From Octopus sinensis (lineage: Eukaryota): a stretch of 38,953 nucleotides of DNA. Positions 5,675-38,953 of the stretch are shown here, piece after piece. Numbering within the stretch: the first letter of the stretch is position 1; the number at the start of each line of letters is the position of its first letter. Below the pieces are notes generated by a model. The model was given only the letters and a program-made list of their open reading frames with translations. It did not search any database and was not told where the DNA came from. A program made the position numbers and the translations under genes. The stretch lies in the NCBI RefSeq assembly GCF_006345805.1, contig NW_021835711.1, positions 1-38,953 of the forward strand. The letters run 5' to 3'.

Positions 5675-6040
5675 AAACAATTGCAGCGTGGAAGGTGTTT
5701 ATAAGCCATTTAAGAAACACACAAAAACTGTTAGATTCGTACATACATAAATATATAAATACATACACACACATACATACGTACATATATATCATGAACT
5801 AACTGTTACTTTCTCAGATGCAGCACGAAGTTTTGTCAGTGAACAGGTCGCGGTCTGAAAGCGACGAAAATATTTTGACAAATTAAATTTAAATGTTGAA
5901 GTGAATCTAACGGTGTTTGTGTGTTTCTTAAATGGCTTATAAACACCTTACAGGTTGCAATTGTTTTCGTTCATGCACACGATCTCAGATCAAGTCACTC
6001 GCTATGCAAGTACATCTTTTCTTTTAAATTTCTCCGTAAA
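5675..6040 (+). mobile_element. PLE-like short element family A, preceded by an inverted copy of part of itself
   Basis: 5830-6040 aligns with 27146-27339. 5675-5738 is the reverse complement of 5903-5966. Contains an HHR-like motif. Confidence 0.65.
5832..5882 (+). ncRNA. Variant minimal type I hammerhead-like motif (G3:C8 core)
   Basis: Stem I UUUGUCA/UGACAAA; core GUGAACA plus an extra G; stem II GUCGC/GCGAC; GAAA; palindromic stem III AUAU; UU at the cleavage position. Confidence 0.55.
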
Positions 6041-12640: not shown

Positions 12641-13485
12641 TGGGTAGGCTGTAGGAGAAGGAAATAAAATGTTCCCCTATATAAAACAAATTTATATGAA
12701 AATTTCTGTGTGCACCAGTATTATAAAGTTGAGTTACTGTTTAAATGAAGTAGGCTAATGTGTGTGTGTGTGTGTTTAGATGTATGTGGACATACTTATA
12801 TTAATATATATAAGTGGACGTATATGTAAATATATAAACAGAGGTATCATTAATACATTGTGTAAAATGAATATCACTTTGATTCTAAAGGTGAGTGGAA
12901 TGGGAGAAACACCAAATTTAAGTGCTAGTTTAAATATCTATTAGTATTTATATACATTCTTACACGTTCAATACTTGCCCGGAGCGACTATACACCTCAT
13001 CCCATCGAGGTGGATAAAATATAATGGCAGGCACATTACTGCCATTCAATTGATTTTTTTTTTCTCTTCTCCTTTGAATTTGAAACCTTGTGCCAATCAT
13101 TATAATCATGACTGGCATTTATTTTATTCATTATTATTGTAGTTGTTTGAGTGGCAATGGATGGTAGAATCGGTAGAGAGTCAGATTAAATGTGTAGCAT
13201 ATATTTCGGTTTCTTCTATTTCCATTCTGATTTCAAATCTGAATCGTATAAGTATTAATAATACTTATACTAGAAACGATTCATTCACTTACATTCGTTT
13301 GTATTTGTAACAATGTAAGATATTATCATTTCGTTGTGAACGGTGATGAGTACGGTTCATACATTAGAATGTAAGACAAAACTTACAGAGTTATTGTTTT
13401 TAGCGCTTAACAAGGCACTATCCTAAAGCTCCCATAACAACATTTCACCTTGTGCGCCGGTAAAAATAATTGTAAAATCATTTTA

Positions 13486-13974
13486 GAGTAAAGATTATTT
13501 GCCAACATAACATCGCACTCCTAGTTTAGGACGAATGTTACTGTAATTTAGTCCTAGGAGACGTCGTCTCCAGCTGGCTGTACGACACGATCTGTGTCCT
13601 TATATTTTCGAACAATGGAATCTAGCACCCCTACCCAGCTCAAAACAATATCCGTGTATCGCGATTTCCGGGTTATTTCGCTTCATCATCACAGAACAAT
13701 TGTTCCCTTCATCTAACCGAACAATTATTCTGTACTGATGGAGGGAAATAACCCGGAAATCACGATACACAGATATTGTTTTGAGTTGAGTGAGGGTGCT
13801 AGATTCTCTTGTTTTAAAATAAAAGGACACAGATCGTCTCCTAGGACTAAATATAAGGACACAGATGTCTCCTAGGACTAAATATAAGGACACAGATGTC
13901 TCCTAGGACTAAATTACAGTAACATTCGTCCTACACCAGGACTGCCATGTTATGTTGGCAAATAATCTTTACTC
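13486..13974. mobile_element. MITE with ~77 bp TIRs starting GAGTAAAG (possibly Sola-like) and an internal 31-bp triplication
   Basis: 13486-13562 is the reverse complement of 13897-13974 with a few mismatches. 13588-13608 pairs with 13816-13836. The unit aggacacagatgtctcctaggactaaatata occurs x3 at 13824-13914. No TSD seen; the superfamily is inferred only from the GAG termini. Confidence 0.75.
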
Positions 13975-15559
13975 CAAAGTACTGTTGTTGTACATCTCTC
14001 GATGTGAGATTTACAAATAGTAATTTTCTAATCATTATTTTAGTTTGAAAAATTCAACGCATGAAAGATCTTATAATTAATTCAAGCAACTTTACACAAA
14101 CACGCAATAAGTTAATTGATACCATTTGTATACAGACAATCTATCACGCAAAGGTAATGCCTCTCATTTGTGGTTATATCAGTCTCTTTATCAATCTTTC
14201 TCTTCCCTCTCTCTCTCCCTTGCTTTCACTCTCCTGCTCTCTCTCTCTCTCTCTCTCTCTCTCTATGAATATATATATAGGTGTGTGTATGTGTGTGTGT
14301 GAGTATGCGTGTATATGTTTTGCATGTGTGTACATATAAGTAAATAGCAATTATATTATTCTAAAGATTTTAGACCCCTGCTACATGTAATACTTGTCGT
14401 TTGTGTAGTTGCCTCAGTCGTCACAAATGTCTCCAAGTGAATATATCTTTTTTTTTTATTCTAGCTAGGGTCTATTGTATTTATTCACAGCCAATGAATC
14501 AGTTTCTATGGCAATCCTTTCAGACGATGATGCAATCAAATATAGATATTTTAGAAATCGTAAAAGTGTATACGAAACACTTTTTTGTAAATATTTTCTG
14601 ATTTTCAGTATACAAATATTGGAAACCTAGAATAAATTACAATACATAAAGTTTTATGTGCTGTTGAAAATGGTTGTCAACCTTGCATTTATGAGAAGCT
14701 GAATATACCGAGCCGCATAATTTCATCATGAATACTGAGTCTGATGTAACATTATTTATCACTAATGAACAATGTTTGTTGAAATATTTTTAAATGGCTA
14801 CCGGATGAACAATTAATTTTTGAGAGATTCCTTAAAAACCTCCATAATTTAACCAAACATTTAGTTCTCTCTATTGCAATTAAAAAACGTCATCAAGAAC
14901 TCACCTAAAATATCTAGATTCATCAAAATGTCAAGTTCTTTGAGACTTTATTAAACGTAGACAGCTTTCAAACTTCAGTATTTAAAACGAACCGTCAATA
15001 TATTCGCAAATTATACAACTATGACAACGTCATTACTAAGATATTGGTTTGTAATGCATCTTAAAACCTATCAACTTTTCCTTAAAATAAACAAGCTTTT
15101 AGCAATATAGCCAAATGCAAAATGGGAGAAATCGAGAGAAACGTTTTAATTTTGAAATTAAAATACAACTGGAATATCGTTACAAACCACGCTATAAGCG
15201 ACATATTGAAACGTTTAACAGTTACAAGTTTTAACACAACTAAAGTTTTTCAAATACTTACTAAACATTTCCTTTTAAATCACAAATTCCACAAGCTTCT
15301 CAATTGAGAAATATTAAAATTTTGTATTTATCCACCTAAAATTGTCCATAGATATTAACAAAATCGTATCTTTTGAAATTAAACTGTATTCTTTGAACTG
15401 AAATATCAACCATTTTAATTGCATCAACATTACTTGAAAAATTCTGTTGACCAAGAAATCAAGGTAACTGTGTTTCAATTTCACGTGACTATTTGTTAAA
15501 GAGAAATATCTCAATACATTCATGTCCTCGAGCAATATTTGGAGATCTAAGAACAAGGA

Positions 15560-22403: not shown

Positions 22404-22880
22404 GTCTAGGACGGGGTTGTACGTCATATAAGAATCCAATAACACTTTACAAGTTCAAATCTACTTCTTAGTCGATTGGTCAATTGGTCAAATCCCAAAC
22501 AGATAGCTTCTTCAATGTCTAGATGAAACAATCGGCTGTTGCTACTCAAACTCTTCCGTCAAAACTCTTCTGTCGCCAACTTTTTACTTACTCGTTTCTC
22601 TCGCTGCAAGGACTGCTCTGTGTCTCTCTGAGAAGTGGTCATATCTCCGCGTGTATGTATGCTTCTATGAGTGTGTGTAGATGTGTGTTTGCTTAAAAGA
22701 AGAGGGGGTGATGTTCAGTTACATCAAAAACAATTTTACATTAATCTGATGGGTTACTCTATACTACTGGAGAGTATAAATTGATTCTTCAAGTGAAATA
22801 TTTGTGACAGTGACTTTCACGACACTCACAGTGACTATCAATAATGTTCAGTTTTAAGAGCGTGTGTATATATATATATA

Positions 22881-23072
22881 TAGGGAGAGTTTACGACAAA
22901 AACAAAAGACGAATACTGGTGGTGTACAAAACAAACAGATGTATTAGTATAACGCTCAGGAATAGAAAAAGTCTTTTACGTTTCGAGCCTCCGCTCTTCT
23001 ACAGAAAGGGACACAGAAAAAAACAATGAGAGAAAAAATGTGTGTAGTGGCTAACGATCTATCATGGCGACT
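22881..23072 (-). mobile_element. PLE-like short element family C with HHR-like motif at 22972-23009, flanked by (AT)n
   Basis: Reverse complement aligns with 34244-34397. Motif: cttt-CTGTAGA-A-GAGC ggag GCTC-GAAA-CG-TA-aaag. Confidence 0.65.
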
Positions 23073-25182: not shown

Positions 25183-25239
25183 AAAGGTGTAACACCGTCC
25201 AAATAAGGACTGTCACTTAACGATGGCAAATAGACTTTA

Positions 25240-25271
<32 letters not shown>

Positions 25272-25321
25272 CTTCTCTCTCTCCCTCCTTCTCTCTCTCT
25301 CTCTTCTCTCTCTCCTCTCTC

Positions 25322-25353
<32 letters not shown>

Positions 25354-25456
25354 AGTGTGTGTGCGTGCGTGTGTATATATGTATACGTATATATATATAT
25401 ATATAAATAAATATATAATATTTAATATATATATATATATATATATATATGTATAA

Positions 25457-25489
<33 letters not shown>

Positions 25490-25506
25490 ATTTATATATT
25501 ATATTT

Positions 25507-25551
<45 letters not shown>

Positions 25552-25647
25552 TATATATATTATTTATATATATATTTATTTATATATATATATATATATA
25601 TACGTATACATATATACACACGCACGCACACACACTCACACAACACC

Positions 25648-25707
<60 letters not shown>

Positions 25708-25826
25708 AGGAGGGAGAGAGAGAAGGAGAGAGAGAGAAGGAGAGAGAGAGAAGGAGAGAGAGAGAGAGTAAAGTCTATTTGCCATCGTTAAGTGACAGTC
25801 CTTATTTGGACGGTGTTACTACCTTT
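25183..25826. repeat. Inverted duplication: MITE end + (TC)n + (AT)n + (GT)n mirrored around an (AT)n centre
   Basis: 25183-25242 is the reverse complement of 25766-25826. The microsatellite order and unique interruptions (gtgagtgtgtgtgcgtgcgtgtgtatatatgtatacgta) are mirrored. Confidence 0.85.
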
Positions 25827-26917: not shown

Positions 26918-27095
26918 TATGGCTGAAAGGTTGAGACGTTAGTTTCATAAACTCGAGATTTCCGGTTCGATCCTACTGCTAGGCATCTTGTGCAAATATC
27001 ATTTCCTTCAGTTTCGGTCCTAGCAATAGGATTTGAGTGCAGTTGATTCTGAAGAAATTATGCACAGGCCCGTCGACTGTGTGTGTACAGACATG
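26918..27095 (+). mobile_element. tRNA-headed SINE 5' portion (family 2-related)
   Basis: tggctgaaaggtt (A-box-like), ggttcgatcc (B-box), gcccgtcg followed by (GT)n. Confidence 0.6.
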
Positions 27096-27147
27096 ACACA
27101 TAGTATCGCGCTGATTCTGCCTAAACCTTCTGTTAAAATCCGTGATT

Positions 27148-27198
27148 TTTGTCAGTGAAGAGGTCGCGGTCTGAAAGCGACGAAAATATTTTGACAAA
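27148..27198 (+). ncRNA. Family A hammerhead-like motif (core GUGAAGA, G3.G8 mismatch)
   Basis: Same architecture as 5832-5882. Mirrored on the minus strand at 28181-28231. Confidence 0.45.
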
Positions 27199-27353
27199 TT
27201 AAACTTAAATGTTGAAGTGAATCTAACGGTTTTTGTGTGTTTCTTAAATGGCTTACAAACACCTTCCACGCTGCAATCGTTTTCGTTTCAGCACACGATC
27301 TCGGATCAAATCACTTGCTATGCGAGTACATCTCCGTAATATATATATATATA

Positions 27354-27398
<45 letters not shown>

Positions 27399-27429
27399 AT
27401 ATATATATATATAATATATTATATATACT

Positions 27430-27531
<102 letters not shown>

Positions 27532-27619
27532 TATATATATATATATATATATACTTAATATATATATATATAGATATATATATATATATATACTTATATA
27601 TATATATAAGTATATATAT

Positions 27620-27677
<58 letters not shown>

Positions 27678-27807
27678 CTTATATTTATATATATATATAT
27701 ATACCGGAGTAAACACATAAATGTGAAACAAGGTGGAAAAAAGAGTACTCAAATACCAGTGGTAGAGTAATATGCTTTATTTTAAGCAGCAGAAAATTCA
27801 ACAAAAT

Positions 27808-27845
27808 CTGTTACTCTGAGTTTCTCGTTGCCGTTCATCAGACAG
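27808..27845 (-). ncRNA. Minimal type I hammerhead ribozyme, family B
   Basis: Exact reverse complement of 27858-27895. Lies in the element 27701-27851, which has a second copy at 38023-38180. Confidence 0.75.
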
Positions 27846-27857
27846 TTTTTGCAAAAA

Positions 27858-27895
27858 CTGTCTGATGAACGGCAACGAGAAACTCAGAGTAACAG
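27858..27895 (+). ncRNA. Minimal type I hammerhead ribozyme, family B
   Basis: Stem I CUGU/ACAG (extendable GCAAAA/UUUUGU); CUGAUGA; A-CG(GCAA)CG-A; GAAA; stem III CUC-A-GAG; GUA site with predicted cleavage after 27891. Confidence 0.75.
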
Positions 27896-27951
27896 ATTTT
27901 GTTGAATTTTCTGCTGCTTAAAATAAAGTATATATATATATATATATATTA

Positions 27952-27999
<48 letters not shown>

Positions 28000-29444
28000 T
28001 ATATATATATATATAAGTATATATATAGATATAAGTATATATTACGGAGATGTACTCGCATAGCAAGTGATTTGATCTGAGATCGTGAGCTGAAACGAAA
28101 ACGATTGCAGCGTGGAAGGTGTTTGTAAGCCATTTAAGAAACACAAAAACCGTTAGATTCACTTCAACATTTAAGTTTAATTTGTCAAAATATTTTCGTC
28201 GCTTTCAGACCGCGACCTCTTCACTGACAAAAATCACGGATTTTAACAGAAGGTTTAGGCAGAATCAGCGCGATACTATGTGTCATGGCTGTACACACAC
28301 AGTCGACGGGCCTGTGCATAATTTCTTCAGAATCAACTGCACTCAAATCCTATTGCTAGGCTCGAAGCTGAAGGAAATTATCAATAGATAATGTGTACCT
28401 CTTTCCCGGATAAATTCCATTTGTAAGTTGAGTTCATTGTCGTGACCTGTAAGGATGAGATATTCTGGAACCTTTTAGAGCTTAAATTGGTTTATACTTC
28501 CCTCTTATCTTACCTGTTTCTGATATCACTTTCTCAATTTTTTTAAATTTCACTTTTCTTTTTATATAACATATAATAATACACAGATTTTGCAACACAT
28601 TGATTATAAACCTTTTCGCTCTCTGCCCTTGATGTTTATCTAGATCCCATTGTAGCGTCCTATATTTCATAGCGTAGGGGCCCTTTTAACTGAAAATAAT
28701 GAAAAGTGTTTACGTCACCCCCACCTACCTCTTTTTATGGACTTTTTGCACTATCTAATTGAATTCTTCTAAAGTTTGTTTCTTTATGTGTTAAGGGGTA
28801 CTTAAGAAATTAAGATTCGAGGGAACATCTAACAATATTTATTTACAACCTGCAGCCAGTTCTGAACTGTCAACTCTTAATGCTTTTATTCACAATAAAC
28901 GCAATCTACTACCATTAGATCTTTTAATGGTGATAGATAAAAATTAGAAATGAATTACAACCGCATGGTCTATTCCTGCCACTCCAAAATTGTAGCTGCT
29001 TTTCTCTTAGATGATTTCTGCTGTAATAATGGCAACGTGGAATTCCTTCATCTTTTAGCTCTCTTTTTTTTTTTGCAACAGACGATGACACTACATTTGA
29101 ACTGATGTAATGCTTGCATTGTTCGATTGAATGGTGCCGTCTGAAATGGTCGTATTACGTTAACACCTGACATCATGTTACTAATTTCATTTTATTCACC
29201 TTACTTCCAGGTGTGCGGATAATACCGGACTGACTTGGTGCCTCAACTTAAGGGCCTAATTCAATTGAATCTTAAATATATCTTTGTATATGAGTATATG
29301 TATATAAAATGATAAGAGAATATATACATAGAGACAGTGAGAATATAACAATATGAGTGTGTGTCTGTGTATATATATGGCAAATGGAAGATGGAAGTGA
29401 TTATTATTAATCACGACAATTGTTTCGGCACATCTAGCATCAAT

Positions 29445-29849: not shown

Positions 29850-31060
29850 GAGCCGTCGGCTTATCTGGTATGTGGAGTACACAATGTTATTTCTTTTTTG
29901 ATGACATTAATGCCCACATTGTGTAGGTTACTTAATTTTTGTGTCATGGCATTGGCGTGCTGCAGGTCTTTGGAACCTAAGCTATTGCATTGCTTTCTCT
30001 TGTATTTAGACGGAATGGACTGTACCTCTGTAAAATACAACGGCATCCAGTTCGGGCATTTGTATAACATTGTGTTGCACCTTCACTTTAGGGAATAAAG
30101 TCGTAGGTTTTTCATCTGCTGCACTGTTACAATCCTTTCAATGTAGAGACATTGGACTGCTTCAATCTTCGCTCTTAGTTTGGCGTTATGTGGTGACCAT
30201 AGCTGAGAGGTGTAGTACAGGTAGCTGAGAACAAAAGATCTCCACAGGCTCAACATAACTTCTTGGTCTCTTACCTTGTACCTTCATGGTCCGTATATGA
30301 AGGCTGCGCTGCATTTGTGAGCTGATAGTGCAGTGCTTGAAAGTTTCCAGTGTTAAACTGTACATCGTTTACTTCGAAAACCACTTTTACTTTGCATGTA
30401 GGTCCCATTGTATGCTTGCGAGGTCATCTGAATTCTTTATTGCTTGTGATAGCTTTTTGCATCATTAATGTAGATAGTGACACTCGCTGTCTGAGTAAAC
30501 ATGAGCATGTCTAAGACAGTTATTATAAACAGTAATGGTTCCAGGGCAATTCTCTAGGGAACGCTACTTAGAATTTGAGCTTTCACAGAGAGGGCTGCAA
30601 CTGCCTCACTTCTGTCTTTAAGGAAATCATGCAACCACTCTCCAAGTTTACTAGCAGCTTGTGACATATCGTACCATGATCTACGTTCTCAAAGGCCTTC
30701 GCGAAGCCAAGATATATTATACTGCCATCTAAATAGTTAGGGAGCTGTTTCAAACCCCAGGCATGATGCTGTAAGTGATGTGTGACGCAGCTTCCTCCTG
30801 AATGAAACTCATATTGTGTATTGTTTAGTTCGTATTTTTCTTCTTGGAACATTATCAGTATCTTTTTGATGATTTGTTCCATGACTTTACGTATAAGTGA
30901 AGTCACAGAGATTGGCCTGAGTCTTTAACCTCCGCTCTGCTCCTACCTTTGTGGATAGGACATATGATGCATTCTTTAGGCCCTTTAGGAAGTTTATCAC
31001 TTGCAAGGAAACTCTGGAAAATATCTGAAATGGTTTCGCTAAAGCCTGCTTATATGATCT
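29850..31060 (-). mobile_element. CR1/Jockey-group LINE reverse transcriptase fragment, pseudogenised
   Basis: YKQALAKPFQIF; HKG.SRAEVK; TSLIRKVMEQIIKK...QYEFHSGGSCVT...IIYLGFAKAFENVDHG (cf. QHGFRSGRSC, YLDFAKAFDKVDH). Degenerate VPQG.LGPLLF and YADD regions near 30560 and 30465; YTSQLWSP near 30200. Confidence 0.85.
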
Positions 31061-34243: not shown

Positions 34244-34397
34244 TTTCTCTCCTTGTTTTTTTCTGTGTATCTTTCTGTCGAAGAGCGTAGGCTTGAAACG
34301 TAAAAGACTTTTTCTATTCCTGAGCGCTATACTGATACATATTTTTGTTTGTACTCCACCTGCCTTCGTCTTTTGTTTATTTTCGTAAACTTTCCCT
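34244..34397 (+). mobile_element. PLE-like short element family C with HHR-like motif at 34270-34307, flanked by (AT)n
   Basis: tcttt-CTGTCGA-A-GAGC gtag GCTT-GAAA-CG-TA-aaaga. Homologous to 22881-23072. Confidence 0.65.
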
Positions 34398-34416
34398 TTA
34401 TATATATATATATATA

Positions 34417-36579: not shown

Positions 36580-37559
36580 TATTTTTTAAAAAATACATAC
36601 AAATTTCCACACGAAAGCACTAACTTCAAACGAGTCTTCTCTGATGTGAATTGCTACAGGTATCGGTTAACCGAATTATCCATAACAAGATAATTCATTC
36701 AACTACTCAATATTCATATGTATGTATATATATATATATATTATATATATATATTATATATAATTCATAATAAAAGGGCAAACGAAAAATTTCTAATGCG
36801 AAATATGCCGAAAAATTGGACATATTGTCCATTAACCATATATTTTTTCACAATATGTCCAATTTTGTCCAATGTTTCGGCATATTTGGCATTAGAACAT
36901 TTTTGTACTTGCCCTTATTTATGAATTATATAAATTTAACCTTTAAAAGTATTTTTTTAATATGCTGGCCATTGATAAAATTTTGGGGGAAAAAGAAAAG
37001 AAATGCTATCCTACATTAGATATATATATAATATATATATATAATATATATATATTATATATATGATATATAATATATATATATATATATATATACATGC
37101 ATATATACATACATATATATATGTAAAAAAAATACAAACTGGGACAGAAACGCAAAACATTTAAAAGACGATACAAAAAACACGGACGGGACATTCGAAG
37201 CCTTCAATATTCAGTCAAGAACCGGATCATCCTAGCAATTTCGACTGATTAATCTTGAGATTGCTCCGATCTGGCCAGTGGCCAGCCACAAAGGAAAGGC
37301 TAAGCCAAGCGCATTAGATTCCTTGGAAGAAAGCCTCGAATGTATACAAAACAAGGACGCAAAAACGGACGTTGTTTCACGAATAAGAATACAAAAATAC
37401 ATAAAAGCAATAATGATAATAATAACAAAGACAGGACGTTACAGACAGGCGTCTTCGACAGGACGAGTAAACTTTGAGCTGGCGTGTTAGAAAAGTGCCT
37501 TAGGGCAGAGAGAAAAAATGTGTCTTGCCACGACAACTGCTAAGCAGGAAAGGCCGGCA

Positions 37560-37589
37560 AATATATATATAGTAGTATATATATAAGTA

Positions 37590-38006: not shown

Positions 38007-38022
38007 TATATATATAGATAGT
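37560..38022. repeat. (AT)n tract
   Basis: Direct reading. Confidence 0.95.
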
Positions 38023-38180
38023 ATACCGGAGTAAATACATAAATGTGAAACAAGGTGGAAAAAAGAGTACTCAGATACCAGTGGTAGAGTAATATGATTT
38101 ATTTTAAGCAGCAGAAAATTCAACAAAATGTGTTACTCTGAGTTTCTCGTTGCCGTTCATCAGACAGTTTTTGCTAGAAT
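38023..38180 (-). mobile_element. PLE-like short element family B, second copy, with HHR at 38130-38167
   Basis: Near-identical to 27701-27852. The HHR core is intact, with one stem I mismatch (ACAC for ACAG). Not folded back. Confidence 0.75.
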
Positions 38181-38953
38181 GGAACATATATATCAATTCA
38201 ATCTCTTACTCTTACAAACGCTACACCTTTAAAAAGAAATGGACTTGGTTTGATGGCCCTTTAGAAAAAACGGTCAATCTTCGAGCGATAAACAAAAGGT
38301 CAAAAAATATGTATATATATATAAAAAAACTTATAAAAATTATAAAAAATTATAAAATACGAGGAAAAAAACGAGGAAAAAACCTATTGCCGTTAATGAG
38401 ACAGTACAAATTAATGCATAGAAATTAAAACCTGTTATAAATTACTGCATACATTTATATTAAAATCCACCATATATATATATCAACATACACAAAAGGA
38501 TGCGCGCTCGTAAACGCCATACATATACAGACGTATGAATATAAATCTAAATTATACACATAAAAGCATGTGTACATATATTCACGCAAAACCGTCTCGC
38601 ACGCAAGCTAAAATTCATCTATGTAGCAATTCTCATATACTGAGCAAGGAGGGGGAACGAAAGAAAGAAAGGGAAAAGAGAGAAAAAGGAACGAGGGAGG
38701 GGTAGGAGGGAAAAAACTTGTAGCGATATTATTGGCATCTATAGAGGCCAGTATACATACACAAGTTTGAATTGATACATATACATACAGTCGTGTGTAT
38801 GCGTGCTTAAGCACAAGCATATTTCACTTACACATACACAGATACGCATGCTTACAAATACATATGCTTTGCTATACACAAACTTATATAAACATTCTAA
38901 ATTTGACAACATTGCTTTTTTTAAAAAAACATTGCTTTTAAAAAATGGTTGCA

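What the first reader, a model, noticed from the sequence alone, without database searches (positions are those of the whole stretch)
27775..27928. Perfect spacerless 144-bp palindrome placing two family B hammerheads back to back
Seen: 27780-27923 is a perfect palindrome with one intact HHR per strand, diverging from the centre (27851|27852). The unrearranged copy at 38023-38180 continues tttttgc-tagaatgg, so the fold-back occurred just upstream of stem I. Stem III (ACUCAGAGU) has a 1-nt loop, so it cannot close as a monomer but can pair intermolecularly. Inference: any read-through transcript carries the ribozyme plus its antisense, forming a 72-bp hairpin that would block cleavage and could feed ADAR or Dicer. 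Inverted partial pLTRs are a known PLE insertion signature.
Basis: partly seen in the sequence, partly recalled or inferred. Interest (0 to 1): 0.75.

Follow-up and report, generated by a model that had tools for sequence, protein, structure and literature searches.

The report
Back-to-back ribozymes from jumping-gene insertion
A perfect 154-base DNA palindrome with a hammerhead-ribozyme motif on each strand is really there, but it is likely the ordinary head-to-head remnant that Penelope-type jumping genes leave when they insert, and any RNA read through it is predicted to fold into a hairpin that silences the ribozyme.

Summary
The palindrome is real and longer than stated: 154 bp (27775-27928), centre 27851|27852. 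Each strand has a minimal type I hammerhead core, but stem II lacks the usual G10.1-C11.1 pair, so "intact" is unproven.

It has the published anatomy of a Penelope-like (PLE) insertion: head-to-head 5'-truncated pLTRs, a tail (71 nt) on one arm only, and both ends in (TA)n. Head-to-head junction palindromes and opposite-strand hammerhead pairs are already in print (PMC3846280, PMC4209133). A second, older pair from another family lies in this window (13482-13978).

Public contigs from two organisms show the same family folding back 2 nt away, at CT|AG; two contigs show the same tail-less end. The fold point therefore looks clustered, not fixed to one base; this exact junction was not among the rows shown.

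Best mechanism (inferred): two target-primed cDNAs joined head to head through a short self-complementary word. No PLE ORF, transcription, editing or small RNA was shown. The scan found a similar case in another genome.

The parts
27775..27928 (.). Perfect spacerless 154-bp palindrome, centre 27851|27852; two family B pLTR fragments head to head
27852..27901 (+). Family B minimal type I hammerhead motif: extended stem I, core C3 at 27862, 2-bp stem II with GNRA loop and A opposite A at 10.1/11.1, palindromic stem III, predicted cut after A27891
   Evidence: activity untested
27802..27851 (-). Mirror copy of the same hammerhead motif (C3 at 27841, predicted cut after 27812)
27704..27774 (-). 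71-nt 3' extension ('tail') present on the left arm only; ends at the family's commonest (TA)n-joined 3' end
   Evidence: table 7 (TA-rich loose ends before 38022 in all 4 runs)
27339..27703 (.). Interrupted (TA)n array at the 3' end of the left arm (likely target)
27929..28042 (.). Shorter interrupted (TA)n array at the 3' end of the right arm; the arm's end matches a recurrent tail-less end of the family
   Evidence: (run X2, 2 contigs with TA-rich letters before 38098)
27001..27338 (+). Left outer arm: 146 bp of flank plus a family A pLTR-like relic (27147-27338) whose hammerhead core has G3 opposite G8
28043..28378 (-). Right outer arm: inverted copy of 27001-27338 (6 substitutions and one 2-nt indel in 338 columns), with the same G3/G8 state
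38026..38302 (-). Unrearranged family B copy, 3' end at (TA)n, continuing 5' past the fold point; used as reference

Best explanation
The palindrome is two truncated copies of one hammerhead-bearing repeat joined head to head inside a (TA)n tract, likely the dead-end inverted pseudo-LTR product of a Penelope-like retrotransposon insertion. Inferred mechanism (twin target-primed reverse transcription): the element's GIY-YIG/RT protein, supplied from elsewhere in the genome, nicks both strands of the (TA)n tract. One cDNA starts at the end of the 71-nt tail and the other at the tail-less site. Both stop just 5' of hammerhead stem I. Their 3' tips anneal through a short self-complementary word of the element (GC here, CTAG in other copies) and each is filled in on the other, which gives a palindrome with no spacer. 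The target likely was the TA centre of an older inverted duplication of the flank. Predicted consequence: read-through RNA from either side is a 75-bp hairpin inside about 340 bp more of duplex, so the ribozyme would not fold. Shown: the anatomy and the recurrence of both end types and of a near-identical fold in other DNA. Inferred: every enzymatic step. My odds: about 0.85 that it is a PLE insertion by-product, about 0.5 for this exact route.
For: Anatomy matches published PLE insertions: an inverted 5'-truncated copy next to the 5' end, a tail at one end only, microsatellite bias (PMC8557442 passages); palindromes at head-to-head junctions (PMC3846280). A purified PLE protein cuts and extends both strands of AT-rich DNA, starts at two sites that bracket the tail, and is predicted to be a dimer (PMC11167929). 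TA-rich loose ends before 38022 in 4 of 4 runs (13, 16, 11, 17 contigs). TA-rich letters before 38098, the right arm's own end, in 2 contigs of X2; pieces starting at 38098 with 8-16 unaligned letters in X6 and X7. Loose ends behind 38177 that read back as the reverse complement in X2 (2 contigs, 16 letters, agreement 1) and, for the first 7 letters, in X1 (2 contigs, agreement 0.85). Of the centres from 38160|61 to 38178|79, only two are natively self-complementary (GC, CTAG), and these are the two folds seen. A second, older head-to-head hammerhead pair lies at 13482-13978 (107 of 125 columns identical, cores 45 nt apart). A TA-centred flank inversion with no hammerhead lies at 25183-25826, so such targets exist without family B.
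Against: No PLE RT or GIY-YIG frame was found among 195 ORFs scanned; the only RT hit is a weak RVT_1 match at 30586-30924, below the Pfam cut-off and not linked to family B. The tail is 71 nt against the 30-40 nt in print. The window's own G|C junction was not among the 24 of 114 loose-end rows shown. The microhomology argument rests on two junction types. Snap-back of one cDNA gives the same sequence. The arms do not date the events: 0 differences in 77 bp has probability 0.25 at the outer arms' rate. Evidence comes from contigs only, and library fold-back artefacts in a high-copy repeat cannot be excluded.
Confidence: 0.5

Rival explanations
1. Same PLE origin, but by self-priming: one cDNA (or an antisense RNA, as Arkhipova and colleagues proposed) folds back on its own 3' end just past stem I, is extended into a hairpin, and the copy is resolved at the tail boundary and joined to (TA)n.
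For: It is the published reading of these junction palindromes (PMC3846280 Discussion). The arms are identical over 77 bp, as one template predicts. CTAG could form a mini-hairpin (recalled DNA-structure knowledge, not tested).
Against: The G|C junction would need non-templated A in place of the native T to close a 4-nt loop. It needs a separate step to end the second arm at the recurrent tail-less site beside (TA)n.
Confidence: 0.28
3. Sequencing or assembly artefact (fold-back read at a hairpin-prone TA tract).
For: The exact junction was not seen in independent data (partial listing); no genome was held to check; long TA tracts flank it.
Against: A chimeric read would mirror everything. Here the right arm drops the tail at a site used by other copies, the TA arrays differ in length, the outer arms differ by 6 substitutions and an indel, and the sequence returns to unique flank. 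Near-identical folds exist in two other runs.
Confidence: 0.07
4. A selected regulatory element: the locus is kept to make dsRNA for ADAR or Dicer, or as an antisense switch on the ribozyme.
For: The fold is very stable (z = -23; nearly end-to-end duplex over 1378 nt). Penelope copies give small RNAs in a rotifer (PMC3846280).
Against: The copy is young (1 of 149 bases from the majority letters), so perfection needs no selection; the older pair at 13482-13978 has simply decayed. No host exon was detected by Pfam in the window.
Confidence: 0.03

Closest known systems
Inverted pLTR insertion units of endonuclease-positive Penelope-like elements (Penelope/Poseidon, Neptune, Nematis; PMC8557442, PMC3846280)
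   Same: Head-to-head 5'-truncated pLTR copies, palindrome at the junction, tail on one end only, AT-rich or microsatellite target, hammerhead inside the pLTR.
   Different: No ORF here; the palindrome is 154 bp against the 18- and 38-bp ones named for Adineta vaga; the tail is 71 nt against 30-40; it is nested in an inverted duplication of the flank.
Minimal type I hammerheads of metazoan PLEs (PMC4209133)
   Same: Full core, short stem I, palindromic stem III suited to dimers; pairs on opposite strands were reported at about 100-700 bp.
   Different: The cores are only 20 nt apart. Stem II is 2 bp rather than long and lacks the 'highly conserved' G10.1-C11.1 pair (A opposite A in most of the depth, A-U or A opposite G in the rest).
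Non-LTR retrozymes (bioRxiv 10.64898/2026.07.22.740005, part 1 read)
   Same: Non-coding, type I hammerhead, thought to derive from PLE pLTRs; many occur as solo copies.
   Different: Defined by head-to-tail tandem units; this locus is an inverted pair with no tandem array.
L1 twin priming (recalled; seen here only as search listings)
   Same: Two primed cDNAs joined by microhomology give an inversion.
   Different: In L1 the two cDNAs copy different parts of one RNA; here both arms copy the same 77 nt, which gives a palindrome.

Membership tests
Endonuclease-positive Penelope-like element | Single ORF with telomerase-like RT and GIY-YIG endonuclease | tested here: inconclusive
   None in 195 window ORFs or upstream of the 38-kb copy. 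Truncated copies are expected to lack it, and no genome was held to look for a full copy.
Endonuclease-positive Penelope-like element | Inverted 5'-truncated pLTR copy adjacent to the 5' end (head to head) | tested here: met
Endonuclease-positive Penelope-like element | Optional 3' tail on one end only | tested here: met
   71-nt extension on the left arm only; both end types recur in other runs. Longer than the 30-40 nt in print.
Endonuclease-positive Penelope-like element | Insertion bias for AT-rich DNA or (TA)n | tested here: met
   Both arms and the 38-kb copy end in (TA)n; TA-rich loose ends in 4 of 4 runs, two small (TG)n/(CA)n-type rows in X7.
Endonuclease-positive Penelope-like element | Target-site duplication | tested here: inconclusive
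   Cannot be read inside interrupted TA arrays.
Endonuclease-positive Penelope-like element | Clade assignment (Poseidon, Neptune, Nematis, Hydra) by RT phylogeny | not testable with these tools
   No linked ORF; three collection scans types found no copy.
Minimal type I hammerhead ribozyme | Core C3-A9, G12-A14, A15.1-U16.1 and H17 | tested here: met
Minimal type I hammerhead ribozyme | Palindromic stem III able to pair between two molecules | tested here: met
   Duplex of 4+4 bp with a central mismatch, -7.4 kcal/mol.
Minimal type I hammerhead ribozyme | G10.1-C11.1 pair closing stem II | tested here: not met
   A opposite A in all three window copies; U or G alleles at 11.1 in other copies, no C allele listed at 2% or more. 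A GCAA-to-GGAA loop allele keeps GNRA.
Minimal type I hammerhead ribozyme | Self-cleavage at H17 | not testable with these tools
   Needs an in vitro assay or cyclic-phosphate sequencing.
Non-LTR retrozyme | Two or more head-to-tail units, each with a type I hammerhead | tested here: not met
   The copies are inverted or solo.

The most novel reading that the evidence does not exclude
These short palindromes record how PLEs finish integration: both arms are separately primed cDNAs (one from each RT start site) that stop at the 5' edge of the hammerhead and anneal through native GC or CTAG words. This would replace the published self-priming model, tie the hammerhead's boundary to the 5' junction, and, if priming sometimes uses sister chromatids, make PLEs a source of inverted duplications of host DNA and of long dsRNA. 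The family would also carry an active hammerhead variant without the G10.1-C11.1 pair.
Probability: 0.25. Interest if true: 0.55.

Novelty: new member of a known kind. Interest (0 to 1): 0.22.

Why it matters
As a single locus it matters little: it is a young, non-coding transposon remnant of a published type. Its value is as a clean footprint. How PLEs form tandem and inverted ends is stated to be open (PMC8557442, PMC3846280). This high-copy family shows two alternative 3' ends and fold points within 2 nt of each other at the ribozyme's edge, so a genome-wide count could tell twin priming from self-priming at low cost. The stem II variant without G10.1-C11.1 would widen hammerhead search patterns if it cleaves.

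Tried and rejected
No genome was held, so no genome-wide count of family B folds was possible.

Pattern scans found 0 copies in viral contigs, metagenome contigs and prokaryote genomes.

Rfam gave no hammerhead match at E up to 1; its miRNA hits over the palindrome are below the gathering scores and reflect any long hairpin. ARAGORN found 0 genes.

The run search listed no RNA holder on record; this is no evidence either way. X7 is only guessed to be RNA.

Splice-site idea: the left arm begins right after a pyrimidine-rich AG, as an intron end abuts stem I in D. virilis Penelope (PMC4209133). No joint was seen in 4 of 4 runs, and the CTAG folds include bases upstream of that point, so I set it aside; contigs show presence, not absence.

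My first idea that the right arm lost the tail by a later microhomology deletion was dropped when the same end turned up in other copies.

Priming through the cDNA's own stem I hairpin was rejected: it would leave the ribozyme in a loop rather than duplicate it.

The idea that 26920-27100 is an old SINE rests on recall; it had no second match in the window beyond the inverted arm and stays untested.

Summed contig depth falls 3.6- to 16-fold between bins 38159-68 and 38189-98 in the four runs, but the tool warns that this is no copy number, so I use it only as a hint.

The paper on dimer-cleaving PLE hammerheads (PMC5785218) is not held and is known here only through a review.

Full report
OBSERVATION. 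An exact scan of all centres in the window gives one non-microsatellite palindrome with arms of 10 bp or more: 27775-27928, arms of 77 bp, centre 27851|27852. In 30 mononucleotide shuffles of the window without microsatellites the longest arm was 10 bp. A loose hammerhead scan returned the motif on both strands of the palindrome and once more at 38122-38175 on the minus strand. The left arm plus its extension (27704-27852) matches 38026-38174 at 145 of 149 bases. Rfam reported no hammerhead.

THE RIBOZYME. All core bases are present, with a GUA triplet at 27889-27891. Stem I has 4 bp, a mismatch and 5 more bp. Stem II is 2 bp with a GNRA loop, and has A opposite A where minimal PLE hammerheads show a 'highly conserved G10.1-C11.1' pair (PMC4209133, parts 1-2 of 4 read; supplements not seen and may show such variants). 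In four public runs position 11.1 is mostly A, with U at 0-20% and G at 5-26% of summed depth and no C allele listed; a loop allele keeps GNRA in 3 of 4 runs. So this is a family trait rather than decay of this copy, but activity is untested. Stem III can close weakly as a monomer (3 bp, 3-nt loop, about -0.7 kcal/mol) and much better between two molecules (-7.4). The isolated motif prefers a fold that buries the core (-7.6 against -2.2 to -2.9). Inside the palindromic RNA the native stem I pair has a probability near 1e-48 (all); the RNA is a 75-bp hairpin. Each transcript carries only one sense ribozyme, so the two motifs cannot form a dimer in cis.

SURROUNDINGS. The left arm carries 71 extra nt (27704-27774) and then 365 nt of interrupted (TA)n; the right arm goes straight into about 114 nt of (TA)n. 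Beyond these, 27001-27338 and 28378-28043 are inverted copies, with 6 substitutions and one 2-nt indel in 338 columns; three of the substitutions are in the outer 18 bp. Both outer arms hold a relic of a second hammerhead family (A) with G opposite G at core positions 3 and 8, whereas the third copy at 5831 has G3-C8. With the shared order of TA interruptions, this points to a local duplication. The whole 1378 nt folds nearly end to end. The window holds two parallels. One is an older head-to-head hammerhead pair of a third family at 13482-13978: 107 of 125 columns identical, cores 45 nt apart, a 12-bp palindrome and a 13-nt spacer at the junction. The other is a TA-centred flank inversion without any hammerhead at 25183-25826. 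Of 195 ORFs scanned with Pfam, three had hits, all below cut-off; one is an RVT_1 relic at 30586-30924 with no link to family B. The organism was not determined; the DNA resembles octopus DNA by my recall only.

INDEPENDENT DNA. No genome is held. I laid 4 of the 24 listed runs on the unrearranged copy, 38019-38302: X1 and X6 (organism A, DNA?), X2 (organism B, DNA?) and X7 (organism A, RNA guessed). All are contigs; 24 of 114 loose-end rows and 32 of 1772 pieces were shown. Three results. First, the common 3' end abuts TA-rich letters in all four runs (13, 16, 11, 17 contigs). Second, two X2 contigs have TA-rich letters before 38098, which is the right arm's own end; X6 and X7 have pieces that start there with 8-16 unaligned letters (letters not shown). 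So the missing 71 nt is an optional tail, not a one-off deletion. Third, behind 38177 two X2 contigs continue as the exact reverse complement for up to 16 letters, and two X1 contigs do so for the first 7 letters of their consensus (agreement 0.85, then unrelated letters). That is a spacerless fold centred at 38175|38176, 2 nt from the window's fold (38173|38174). The window's exact junction was not among the rows shown, no strand-changing joints were listed, and table 6 (piled ends) was empty. Between 38160 and 38179 only two centres are natively self-complementary, GC and CTAG, and these are the two folds seen; this is two junction types only. At three of the four differences from the 38-kb copy the palindrome carries the runs' majority letter, so it is 1 of 149 from the majority and young.

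MECHANISM. Shown: head-to-head arms, tail on one, (TA)n at both ends, recurrence of both end types and of a near-identical fold. From print: PLE insertions often have an inverted 5'-truncated copy at the 5' end, a 30-40-bp tail at one end and a microsatellite bias (PMC8557442, 12 of 13 passages). Palindromes at head-to-head junctions are abundant in rotifer PLEs and were read as self-priming (PMC3846280, passages and Discussion). A purified PLE protein cuts and extends both strands of AT-rich DNA, starts at two sites bracketing the tail, is predicted to be a dimer and does not need hammerhead cleavage (PMC11167929, parts 1-2 of 4). Inferred: two cDNAs, primed on opposite strands of a TA tract from the two start sites, stop at the 5' edge of stem I and anneal through GC or CTAG. 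This needs no non-templated base and explains the one-sided tail. Single-cDNA snap-back gives the same sequence and remains a strong rival. Whether the flank inversion is older or part of the same event cannot be dated (0 of 77 differences has P = 0.25 at the outer rate).

COMPARISON. It works like the inverted-pLTR end product of an endonuclease-positive PLE, and three of the structural features tested are met. Membership by ORF could not be tested. It is not a non-LTR retrozyme by the tandem criterion (bioRxiv 10.64898/2026.07.22.740005, part 1 of 5). Opposite-strand pairs of minimal hammerheads 100-700 bp apart are in print, and dimer cleavage is covered in a review (PMC6765202, passages). 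Compensatory changes at 10.1/11.1 are reported in cricket hammerheads (PMC2837043, passages). Seven library searches (mostly listings seen) turned up no paper on this family or on folds clustered at the hammerhead edge; most subscription papers are outside the library. An earlier AI note from another genome (e1-9995956) reached the same general verdict; it is no independent evidence, and I had written the same reading before seeing it.

VERDICT. Real, young, and of a known kind. The ADAR/Dicer idea is plausible physics without evidence. What is worth keeping is the testable junction pattern and the unusual stem II. Interest 0.22.

Noticed in passing
window 13482-13978: Older head-to-head pair of minimal hammerheads from another family (cores at 13689 minus and 13735 plus), with a 12-bp palindrome and 13-nt spacer at the junction. 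Its stem II is also flanked by A and G rather than G10.1-C11.1; the right arm holds a short tandem duplication.
   Followed up: partly
window 5831-6017, 27147-27338, 28043-28232: Family A hammerhead: the copy at 5839 has a G3-C8 core swap, while the two copies around the palindrome have G3 opposite G8; the predicted triplet is UUU. The 5831 copy is truncated right at stem I and has an inverted 64-bp fragment at 5675-5738.
   Followed up: partly
window 25183-25826: Inverted duplication centred on a long TA array, copying (CT)n, (TG)n and about 55 bp of unique flank almost exactly, with no hammerhead found. May be a TA-hairpin repair product or an assembly artefact.
   Followed up: partly
window 22867-23035 and 34244-34412: Two solo copies (89% identical) of a third hammerhead family, each with one core mismatch, a 4-nt palindromic stem III, and a 3' end in (TA)n.
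   Followed up: partly
window 38173-38230 (minus strand): The fold point follows a pyrimidine-rich AG with GT donor-like words 36-53 nt upstream and a TATA-like run 15-19 nt upstream; no spliced form was seen in four runs.
   Followed up: partly
window 30586-30924 (minus): Weak RVT_1 match (E 9e-05, below cut-off); looks like a decayed LINE-type RT fragment.
   Followed up: no
window 26920-27100: Possible old tRNA-derived SINE with a B-box-like word near 26966 (recall only); the outer inverted arm cuts through it at 27001.
   Followed up: no
window 37120-37560: A 440-bp unique-looking segment between two TA arrays, next to the family B copy; possibly another microsatellite-targeting element.
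   Followed up: no
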